NCBI GenBank assembly: GCA_964016885.1
Contig: OZ024742.1
Coordinates: 15,314,001 to 15,378,000 of the forward strand
DNA: 64,000 nucleotides
Direction: 5' to 3'
From: Eledone cirrhosa
Taxonomy: Eukaryota
Position 1 is the stretch's first letter. Each line of letters starts with the position of its first letter. Positions 43 to 17,434 of the stretch are shown here, piece by piece. A program made the position numbers and the translations under genes. The notes beneath the pieces were generated by a model. That model saw only the letters and a list, made by a program, of their open reading frames with translations, was not told the origin of the DNA and did no database searches.

Positions 43-47
<5 letters not shown>

Positions 48-57
48 TGCATATATA

Positions 58-178
58 TAACCCTGGAATGGACTGGTGTCGTATCCAGGGGGGAGTCTTG
101 TACTCTCAGTTGCTTCACGCCATAAAACCAGGATATGCACCGGCCTGATGAGCATCGTCGCTCGATACAGACTTTAAA
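58..178 (+). mobile_element. 3' part of tRNA-derived SINE family B (same family as 17856-18110)
   Basis: atggactgg..tccaggggg..tactctca..aaaccaggata..tacagacttt aligns by eye with 18005-18110. Confidence 0.7.
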
Positions 179-11360: not shown

Positions 11361-11654
11361 GTTGACGACCATTTAGTGACAGCTATAATGAAAATTATAT
11401 ATATATAATAATAATATGGAAAACGAAGAATCAGTGATGCATCGGAATACAGTTTATTACGTATCACAATTGTTTCTCCGGCGAACAGCTTGAGGTGCGA
11501 TCTGTTTGTGGATCGAACCTGACTCTGGATTCACAAGTTCCTTAGACGTCTAGTGATTTTGAAGCAAATCCTCTTTCTATATAAGTAGAGTGCTCAACTG
11601 GCATACTGCCTATGGATGCATCTTAGCAACCTACTACAAATATATTCATTTCAT

Positions 11655-11827: not shown

Positions 11828-11980
11828 GTCATCTCATTTCTACAGCTGAGTAAACTGGAGCAATGTGAAATAAAGTGTCTTGCTCAAGGAAACAACACAT
11901 CACCCGGTCTGAGAATTGAACTCACAACCTTTCGATTGCAAGGCCAATGCTCTAACCACTAAGCCAGCCATGTGCCTCCA
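11828..11980 (-). mobile_element. 5' half of tRNA-derived SINE family B (CORE-like body)
   Basis: Minus strand reads ggcacatggctggcTTAGTGGttagagc..GAGTTCAATTC..tccttgagcaagacactttatttcacattgctccagtttactcagctg, with A and B boxes; similar to 17856-17975. Confidence 0.75.
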
Positions 11981-13845: not shown

Positions 13846-14140
13846 AATATCACCACAAAAGGGTTAGAAATTCTTATTTACAAATATGGTCACAAAAGGG
13901 TTAGATATTCTTATTTCTAAATATGGTCACAAAAAGGTTAGATATTATTTCCAAATATGAAGAGTTAGATGTATGTTTTTATTACTAAATATAGTCATAA
14001 AAGAGTTAGATGTATGTTTTTATTATTAAATATGGTCACAAAAGGGTTAGATATTCTTATTTCCAAATATGGTCAAAAAGAGTTAGATGTATGTTTTTAT
14101 TACCAAATATGGTCACAAAAGAGTTAGATGTATGTTTTTA
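13846..14140. repeat. Minisatellite, 36-40 bp unit, about 8 copies (aaatatggtcacaaaag(g/a)gttagat..)
   Basis: Two alternating unit types: ..gggttagatattcttatttcc and ..gagttagatgtatgtttttattac. Confidence 0.9.
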
Positions 14141-14264
14141 TTTTGATATTATTTATTTTGAGAACAATACCTTAACATAAATATGAGCAGTTCGTTACGG
14201 CCGGTTTGAACAGAAAGAAGTGAGAGAATTCTGACTGGTTATGACTGGTTTAAATGTTAAAGGG
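14141..14264. mobile_element. Right half of MITE family P1
   Basis: ttttgatattatttattttgagaacaatacc..ggtttgaacagaaag..tttaaatgttaaaggg-TTAA. Confidence 0.8.
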
Positions 14265-14558: not shown

Positions 14559-14751
14559 GTCTCTTTACTGACCACTAGCCACTGGTCTCTACTGACCACT
14601 AACCACTGGTCTCTACAGACCACTAGCCACTGGTCTCTACTGACCACTAGCCACTGGTCTCTGTTGACCACTAGCCACTGGTCTCTGCTGACCACTAGCC
14701 ACTGGTCTCTGTTGACCACTGGTCTCTGCTGACCACTAGCCACTGGTCTCT
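14559..14751. repeat. 24-bp minisatellite (ctctactgaccactagccactggt), about 8 copies
   Basis: Direct tandem units; one copy lacks an 8-bp agccact-type subunit; it produces the spurious RDQWLVVS ORF. Confidence 0.93.

Positions 14752-16083: not shown

Positions 16084-16087
<4 letters not shown>

Positions 16088-16150
<63 letters not shown>
16088..16150. repeat. (TA)n microsatellite
   Basis: Direct observation. Confidence 0.95.
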
Positions 16151-16153
<3 letters not shown>

Positions 16154-16341
16154 AAAGAGTCAAAGTCAGTGTTGCAGCATATGTACAAACTTTATTTGCA
16201 TATTACATTTGTTTCAATATTGATCAGTTCAGGGTACAATCAAGGTGATGGGGTTCCGACTTTTTTCCACATCTCATCAGATATGCGAGCTTATATATAT
16301 TTAGCACATATGCTGCAACACTGACTTTGACTCTTTTAAAT
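16149..16341. mobile_element. 193-bp hairpin element with perfect 36-bp inverted arms
   Basis: atttaaaagagtcaaagtcagtgttgcagcatatgt (16149-16184) and acatatgctgcaacactgactttgactcttttaaat (16306-16341). Confidence 0.9.
16198..16286 (-). ncRNA. Putative type I hammerhead ribozyme with minimal helix III
   Basis: Minus strand: GCAUAU-CUGAUGA-[GAUGU..AUAUU]-GAAA-C-AAAU-G-UA-AUAUGC: 6-bp helix I, complete CUGAUGA and GAAA cores, GUA cleavage triplet. Confidence 0.7.
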
Positions 16342-16711
16342 CTATTTACACTCTGCACACTACAGCTATAACACAGGGATACAACCCAGACAAAACTTGA
16401 TGGCATCTATCTTCCCCATTAGATGGCTATAAAGGTTTGGTTGTGTAAGATGAGTTTGGGAGAATAGGTGGTTCGTGTATGATTTGATGAATTCGGAGCA
16501 TTAGTATGGTTTTTTTGGCAAGAGTCGTGGCTACAGGCTGGCGTTTGGTTTTGGGTATTTGCTGAGGGTGAGTAGACTGATTGGTCTTGTTTATGTGTAT
16601 ATATATATATACACACACACACATGGATGAAACTGAAATGAAAGACATAGGATGTGGAGAAGATAGTCAATTAAATATCTCACATGTCAGGTGTTGGCTT
16701 GGGTCCATTGA

Positions 16712-16775: not shown

Positions 16776-16792
16776 TTGTCTTATGTCTTGGG

Positions 16793-16841
16793 CAACCCGT
16801 CTAACCCATGGACGTTAAACGGTGATGGTGACGATAGTGAT
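16793..16841 (+). mobile_element. Short 3' tail of family C element
   Basis: caacccgtctaacccatggacgttaaacggtgatggtgacgat, matching 8712-8767 with an internal deletion. Confidence 0.7.
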
Positions 16842-16862
16842 ATATATGTATATATATATATA

Positions 16863-17121
16863 TCATCATCATCATCATCATCATCGTTTAACATCCATCT
16901 TCCACACTAGCATGGGTTAGACGGGAGTTGTCCCAATTTGAGGCAAGGTTGGTCGGGTGGCCGTGTCTCGCTCATATAGGACTATCTGGCAGGTCTTCTA
17001 TGGCTGGATGCCCTTCCTAACACCAACCACATTTACAGTGTGGACTGGGAACTTTTTACCGTGTTACCTACACGGCCACATTACAGCGTGGACTGTGTTT
17101 TTTTGTCGTGACACCTACACG
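16863..17121 (-). mobile_element. RTE-like retroposon 3' end, family C
   Basis: (CAT)n cgtttaacatcc..ctagcatgggttagacggg..gctggatgcccttcctaacaccaaccacatttacagtgtggactggg, followed by the ~45-50 bp duplicated unit. Confidence 0.78.
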
Positions 17122-17434
17122 ATATATAAATAAAATATTATCTGAGTTTAATGACATTTCTGCTACATCCTATATTGCCACACTTTTTACACTTAGAACA
17201 TTTTAATATACACTGCTAATTAAATATTTTTAAACATTTCTAAATAAACATGCTACCTCTGCTTTAATGAAATTTAATGAATATTAGATTTTTTTAAATT
17301 AACACTATTTTTTTCTTGATAGTTGTCAGTATACCACCATTATGGCATAATCTATTGCTTCTATCCACTATGTAGTAGATCTGCACAGATTAACAATCTT
17401 TATTAATACATTTCTTAATGGTTTACACTAAAAT

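What the first reader, a model, noticed from the sequence alone, without database searches (positions are those of the whole stretch)
16149..16341. Hammerhead ribozyme mounted on a perfect 36-bp inverted repeat: candidate miniature ribozyme-bearing mobile element
Seen: on the minus strand, helix I GCAUAU/AUAUGC closes CUGAUGA, a helix II region (GAUGU/AUAUU with G-U pairs, about 48-nt loop), GAAAC-AAAU-GUA. This sits in the loop of a 193-bp hairpin with identical arms, next to a (TA)n tract. Established: minimal type I hammerheads with very short helix III occur in Penelope-like elements and retrozymes and often need dimerisation to cleave; Penelope insertions frequently leave inverted terminal copies. 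Inference: a young, non-autonomous, TA-targeting hairpin retroelement family. The predicted cleavage is after GUA, between plus-strand 16204 and 16203.
Basis: partly seen in the sequence, partly recalled or inferred. Interest (0 to 1): 0.75.

Follow-up and report, generated by a model that had tools for sequence, protein, structure and literature searches.

The report
Decayed Penelope retrotransposon end with hammerhead
This is a short, mutated end fragment of a Penelope-like jumping gene that has many copies in this genome; it carries a conserved hammerhead ribozyme motif that is probably disabled in this copy, and its inverted repeat is likely a by-product of insertion rather than a fixed hairpin element.

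Summary
The 36-bp inverted repeat, the hammerhead motif and the predicted cut site are all there. The locus is not a miniature hairpin element. It is a 5'-truncated 3' end (pLTR) of a Hydra-clade Penelope-like retrotransposon (1,655-1,845 first-look candidates in the genome), linked by upstream walking to broken RT and endonuclease remnants. Across three sister families the catalytic core differs at 0 of 11 positions and helices I-II show 4 compensatory pairs. Helix II carries an unusual 42-46-nt structured insert. This copy is decayed in helix II and in the dimer palindrome. In 88 sampled loci, copies end at two sites, about 55 and 176 nt past the cut site. Of 41 inverted loci, the 26 with both ends at these sites all pair one of each, with overlaps from none to about 160 bp; the 36 bp here is one such overlap. 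Most copies read through the cut site and many stop at a TATA/initiator-like position. The two ends carry different microsatellites, (CT)n versus (AC)n, which may mean repeat synthesis by the RT. The family is old (median 89% identity). The scan's notes held no earlier report of it.

The parts
16084..16148 (.). (AT)n tract adjoining the element's site-A end; likely target site
16149..16298 (-). Sense pLTR segment, family positions about -92 to +55 relative to the cut site; ends at site A
   Evidence: 88.7% to a real family copy over -92..+65 incl. AT run; 96.7% to locus L002
16198..16286 (-). Type I hammerhead motif with long helix II insert; decayed (helix II mismatches, G10.1-U11.1, loop III AAAU instead of AAUU)
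16203..16204 (-). Predicted cleavage site after GUA
   Evidence: sequence; hammerhead rule; not tested
16149..16184 (.). Left arm of the 36-bp inverted repeat (family +20..+55 of the sense segment)
16299..16305 (.). Head-to-head junction; resembles family sequence upstream of the ribozyme and shares a 6-nt microhomology with the right arm
   Evidence: sequence; origin inferred
16306..16394 (+). Inverted pLTR segment, family +20..+108; 16306-16341 is the right arm, 16342-16394 is tail between site A and site B; site-B end missing

Best explanation
This locus is a short, decayed copy of the 3' end of a Hydra-clade Penelope-like retrotransposon, likely made when the parent's reverse transcriptase primed the two strands of a nicked (TA)n target at two fixed sites on the element RNA, so that the 36-bp inverted repeat is the overlap of the two resulting cDNAs. 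Shown: family membership, two 3'-end sites, strict pairing of the two sites in inverted loci, conserved hammerhead, linked RT/endonuclease remnants. Inferred: the RNA starts at a TATA/initiator promoter 113 nt upstream of the cut site; one cDNA began at site A (+55) and ran to about -92, the other probably began at site B (+176) and stopped at +20, losing its outer end later; the RNA was uncleaved when copied; the parent ribozyme would cleave as a dimer through its palindromic helix III, and this copy probably cleaves poorly or not at all.
For: 1,845, 1,655 and 1,798 first-look candidates for three queries; 166 exact matches to a 25-mer. In 92 motif-bearing segments from 88 loci, 3' ends lie at +45..66 in 52, at +168..178 in 26, elsewhere in 14. 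41 of 88 loci are head-to-head; 26 are A+B, 0 A+A, 0 B+B, 15 have one end off-site. 82 of 92 segments run through the cut site; 5 start within 3 nt of it, no denser than neighbouring positions. Of 48 segments that reach -90, 40 stop by -119; TATATAAA lies 31 nt before the A at -113, and a hairpin that starts at that A is kept with changed pairs in a sister family. Upstream walking reached a broken endonuclease on the ribozyme's strand; a sister-family copy has endonuclease, UTR and hammerhead in line. RT remnants are 36% and 41% identical to a 759-aa RT-endonuclease protein (E 4e-45, 6e-27) and carry the Hydra motifs of PMC8557442. Core differences 0 of 11 versus 45 of 97 other positions, 4 compensatory pairs; covariation score above all 500 shuffles. 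Predicted dimer helix III -7.0 kcal/mol in the majority, -1.3 here; helix II probability 1.0 versus 0.01.
Against: No single copy of this family was seen with endonuclease, UTR and hammerhead uninterrupted; the link rests on overlapping loci. No intact parent ORF was found. Pfam and two protein searches gave no family name; the clade call is by eye against published motifs, without a tree. This locus lacks the site-B end, so it is an 'A + off-site' case. Zero arm differences are unusual for the family (about 0.005 at the mean arm divergence). The junction could also come from a later deletion between 6-nt repeats. The 5' hairpin could stall RT, mimicking a start site. Covariation comes from three related lineages, not independent events.
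Confidence: 0.85

Rival explanations
1. A young non-autonomous hairpin family (MITE-like or retrozyme-like) of fixed 193-bp structure.
For: Perfect arms. One other copy, 2.1 Mb away on the same contig, is 97% identical and shares derived changes, so a decayed copy may have seeded later insertions.
Against: Most top matches cover only query 44-193. Arm overlap varies from none to about 160 bp. The right arm runs on into tail sequence. The sister copy has another junction and other flanks. 0 of 88 loci hold two whole ribozymes head-to-tail.
Confidence: 0.05
2. Same parent element, but the inversion arose by fold-back self-priming or by later deletion within a longer palindrome, with arms homogenised by gene conversion.
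For: A stable hairpin sits at the 5' boundary; 7 of 88 loci have two whole ribozymes in opposite orientation; the junction has a 6-nt microhomology; self-priming was proposed for Penelope inversions (PMC3846280 passages); the tail outside the repeat has 6 differences from the majority in 53 nt while the arms are identical.
Against: 14 of 41 inverted loci have arms that do not overlap at all, which fold-back alone does not give; it does not explain why ends are always A+B.
Confidence: 0.25
3. The hammerhead in this copy is active and functional for the host.
For: All 11 core nucleotides and helix I are intact.
Against: Helix II and the dimer palindrome are mutated; the hammerhead fold is 5-11 kcal/mol above the ensemble in every context folded; the promoter-like TATA element is missing from this copy.
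Confidence: 0.07

Closest known systems
Hydra-clade Penelope-like elements, e.g. Hydra-1_Obim (Craig et al. 2021, PMC8557442)
   Same: RT and endonuclease motifs; hammerhead near the 3' end with one base after CUGANGA, a 7-bp helix II (AUGUCUA/UAGAUAU there, AUGUCGA/UCGAUAU here) and a palindromic helix III; (TA)n targets; inverted 5'-truncated copies.
   Different: Loop II is 3-10 nt in the listed Hydra ribozymes, 42-46 nt and structured here. Tail is about 120 nt against the 30-40 bp described. Long low-complexity linker and about 1.5-kb 3' region. All ORFs seen are broken.
Poseidon PAc of Anolis (Frangieh et al. 2024, PMC11167929)
   Same: Two internal RT start sites bounding the tail, priming on both strands, AT-rich targets, start in an AC-rich stem-loop, uncleaved RNA as template.
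   Different: Different clade; start sites close together there; strict A+B pairing and end-specific microsatellites are not reported in the parts read.
[quoted passage not shown]
   Same: Mostly single dispersed motifs from truncated elements, some in opposite strands 100-700 bp apart; 7-8-bp helix II; likely dimer action.
   Different: This family keeps a small palindromic helix III and has a long helix II insert.
Non-LTR retrozymes (PMC7229834; bioRxiv 10.64898/2026.07.22.740005)
   Same: Short, non-coding, type I hammerhead, pLTR-related.
   Different: Those are head-to-tail tandem repeats; none here (0 of 88 loci), and ends do not fall at the cut site.

Membership tests
Hydra-clade PLE | RT with DKT-type motif and divergent motif 4(B), C-terminal endonuclease | tested here: met
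   DKS and a GS-S-SAQV motif in locus L099, by eye against the paper's alignment; BLASTP to P0139
Hydra-clade PLE | CxCX5C linker; CxxC and CxH around conserved E and N; no CCHH | tested here: met
   Loci L086, L107, L124 against section 11
Hydra-clade PLE | Hammerhead near the 3' end on the ORF strand | tested here: met
   In line in sister-family L107 and L092; by overlapping loci for this family
Hydra-clade PLE | Insertion into (TA)n | tested here: met
   This copy; first microsatellite is (AT)n at 33 of 114 ends, and (AT)n follows many (CT)n/(AC)n tracts
Hydra-clade PLE | N-terminal RWK motif; single intact ORF, generally under 3 kb | tested here: inconclusive
   Copies are 5'-truncated and broken; linker and UTR look longer than typical
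Hydra-clade PLE | Placement in the RT phylogeny | not tested
   No tree with named references was built
Type I hammerhead ribozyme | Conserved core and three helices with covariation | tested here: met
Type I hammerhead ribozyme | G10.1-C11.1 pair and palindromic helix III in this copy | tested here: not met
   G-U and AAAU here; G-C in 28 of 71 aligned rows, palindrome in the family majority
Type I hammerhead ribozyme | Match to an Rfam hammerhead model | tested here: not met
   the long insert is the likely cause
Type I hammerhead ribozyme | Self-cleavage | not testable with these tools
   needs an in vitro assay
Non-LTR retrozyme | Head-to-tail tandem ribozyme units | tested here: not met
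   0 of 88 loci within about 850 bp
MITE | Fixed terminal inverted repeats in all copies | tested here: not met

The most novel reading that the evidence does not exclude
The family records an asymmetric two-site insertion reaction in which the Penelope RT first copies a few template bases repeatedly, telomerase-like, adding (CT)n at site A and (AC)n at site B onto a (TA)n target, using an RNA whose extended-helix-II hammerhead is switched off by pairing of loop II with the sequence just before site A. Penelope elements would then be makers of compound microsatellites in this genome.
Probability: 0.25. Interest if true: 0.75.

Novelty: new variant of a known kind. Interest (0 to 1): 0.4.

Why it matters
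The locus itself is one decayed copy of a known kind of element. The family is the useful part. How Penelope elements form their inverted structures and tails, and what their ribozyme does, are open questions in the papers read. Here genomic copies give clean, countable rules: two start sites always paired, cDNA stopping at a predicted transcription start, read-through of the cut site, and end-specific repeats. Three sister families also give a hammerhead variant with a long structured helix II that Rfam models miss, so such ribozymes are probably under-counted.

Tried and rejected
Rfam scans found no hammerhead; miRNA hits were hairpin noise below gathering scores. Pfam gave no relevant family for the ORF remnants or for six long homologues; two word-index protein searches found nothing. 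Sequencing-run search: no RNA holder was listed, so no reads were laid. The scan's earlier notes returned two unrelated items. I first read the parent as Neptune-like from recalled motifs and dropped that after reading the Hydra definition. An endonuclease fragment upstream of L044 is cut off by (AT)n and was not used as a link. A larger endonuclease family (49,643 candidates, about 50-55% aa identity) mostly showed no such ribozyme within 1.5 kb. With two families only, covariation was weak (core versus rest p=0.057); the third family settled it. A peak of 5' ends at the cut site, hinted at in 30 loci, was not seen in the 88-locus set. The loop II / site A pairing is not clearly kept in the sister family. 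A sub-lineage with the AAAU loop is not widespread: 3 of 16 pattern matches.

Full report
Observation. The arms 16149-16184 and 16306-16341 are identical over 36 bp. The minus strand has a type I hammerhead motif at 16286-16198 with the predicted cut between 16204 and 16203. The descriptor matched once in the window and never in 100 shuffles of bases 1-21500. Rfam hammerhead models did not hit it.

Family. The window lies in a 3.0-Gb genome in which the 193-bp query gave 1,845 first-look candidates, 40 scored; most top matches cover only query 44-193. Positions below are counted from the cut site. To avoid selection on structure I took a 25-mer at +11..+35: 166 exact matches, 100 listed. I fetched 90 stretches that cover 92 of the 100, all on contigs C1-C4; the window itself, four loci already seen and the last three listed were left out. 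They gave 88 distinct loci. Of 92 motif-bearing segments, 52 end at +45..66 (site A), 26 at +168..178 (site B), 14 elsewhere. 41 of 88 loci have two segments head-to-head: 26 are A+B, none A+A or B+B, 15 have one end off-site; overlaps run from none (14 loci) to about 160 bp, with one 208-bp value. This locus is a sense segment -92..+55 plus an inverted segment +20..+108. The 36-bp repeat is their overlap, and the right arm goes on 53 bp into tail sequence.

5' ends. 82 of 92 segments run through the cut site; 5 begin within 3 nt of it, the same density as neighbouring positions. Of 48 segments that reach -90, 40 stop by -119, with a mode at -113. TATATAAA lies 31 nt upstream of the A at -113. 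A hairpin that begins at that A is kept in a sister family with different pairs. The region upstream gave only 88 candidates and, further up, 19. Inference: most copies are short cDNAs that ran from site A or B towards the RNA's 5' end; RT stalling at the hairpin is the alternative.

Parent element. Two long copies share about 860 bp upstream of the ribozyme. That region lies downstream of a broken endonuclease frame on the same strand in L062/L083, which also has an inverted ribozyme end at its 5' side. 6 of 14 other loci found with the endonuclease DNA carry ribozyme-end sequence within 1.5 kb. A sister-family copy, L107, has endonuclease, UTR, hammerhead and (TA)n in line. L099 holds RT remnants 36% and 41% identical to a 759-aa RT-endonuclease protein. 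The motifs fit the Hydra clade of PMC8557442 (seen: passages, section 11, supplement parts 1, 2, 52, 53 and search hits). This is a comparison by eye; Pfam gave no name. All ORFs seen are broken, and no copy of this family had the whole chain uninterrupted. The host is probably an octopus-like cephalopod (inference from repeat content and likeness to Hydra-1_Obim).

Ribozyme. The family majority has 8 pairs in helix II, a 42-nt structured insert and a palindromic helix III, and folds as a hammerhead on its own. A covariance model built from 71 copies found a second, distant copy in this window at 11448-11558; it belongs to a third family with 2,238 candidates. Across the three family majorities the core differs at 0 of 11 positions, the variable core base is U, A or G, and families 1 and 3 differ by 4 compensatory pairs against 45 of 97 other positions changed (Fisher p=0.002). 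On 44 selected rows 61 cells change on both sides against 21 in shuffles; these count sequences, not events. Families 2 and 3 lack the G10.1-C11.1 pair. The published Hydra ribozymes have the same layout with loops of 3-10 nt. This copy has lost two helix II pairs, has G-U at 10.1-11.1 and a broken palindrome; predicted dimer helix III falls from -7.0 to -1.3 kcal/mol. In majority RNA extended to +57, loop II pairs with +44..+53 (10 bp; 3 of 2,000 shuffles) and the hammerhead fold is lost; the sister family does not clearly keep this pairing.

Age and perfect arms. Median identity to the majority is 88.9% in 73 segments. Arms differ at 302 of 2,186 positions in 24 inverted loci, none with zero. 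Zero in 36 here has a chance of about 0.005. One copy 2.1 Mb away is 97% identical, shares derived changes and has different flanks and junction. A later insertion from a decayed source, gene conversion between arms, or luck among many loci all remain open.

Flanks. The first microsatellite after 70 site-A ends was (CT)n in 36, (AT)n in 17, (AC)n in 0, other or none in 17; after 44 site-B ends it was (AC)n in 16, (AT)n in 16, (CT)n in 1, other or none in 11. Random positions in the window gave 12, 38 and 247 of 4,000 for CT, AC and AT. 5 of 26 A+B loci have both CT and AC. The element's own end supplies an ACAC seed at site B. Target choice by microhomology, later expansion, or repeat synthesis by the RT could each explain this. 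Two searches found no paper reporting it in their listings.

Comparison. Inverted truncated copies with a one-sided tail are described in PMC8557442 and PMC3846280 (passages, which also note TATA and initiator motifs in a pLTR). Two internal RT start sites, priming on both strands and uncleaved template were shown in vitro in PMC11167929 (parts 1-2 of 4). Dispersed single and opposite-strand ribozymes from truncated elements are in PMC4209133 (parts 1-2 of 4). Retrozymes are tandem (PMC7229834 passages; bioRxiv 10.64898/2026.07.22.740005 part 1 of 5 and passages); 0 of 88 loci are. PMC13282606 (passages) lists Penelope-like repeats in an octopus and does not mention ribozymes. Searches for this ribozyme variant or host found nothing closer than PMC8557442 (listings only). 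Hammerhead numbering and the TATA/initiator spacing rule are recalled knowledge.

Verdict. A real but decayed hammerhead in a truncated Hydra-clade Penelope end. The hairpin is an insertion by-product. The family is a new variant of a known kind, with testable clues to the insertion mechanism.

Noticed in passing
window 11408-11640: A second truncated pLTR of a more distant sister family: hammerhead on the minus strand at 11448-11558 (core mutated), preceded by an inverted tail piece; 2,238 first-look candidates, two 3' ends about 75 nt apart.
   Followed up: partly
window 21505-64000: 31-bp satellite array, 1,371 copies, 93% matches, strong GC skew.
   Followed up: no
window 11901-11973: tRNA-like Rfam hit, 32.9 bits, probably the head of a SINE.
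   Followed up: no
window 16780-17130: An abundant repeat with an (ATC)n end, present as an inverted pair around 16812-16894; similar pieces flank many fetched loci.
   Followed up: no
loci L107-L133: A much larger related endonuclease family (49,643 candidates) with long open stretches; its 3' end and ribozyme were mostly not found within 1.5 kb.
   Followed up: partly
L083:6116-6580 (minus strand): A 154-aa low-complexity open frame antisense to the element's 3' region, with triplet periodicity shared by several copies.
   Followed up: no
window 14562-14751 and 13854-14142: Minisatellites with 24-bp and 37-41-bp units.
   Followed up: no
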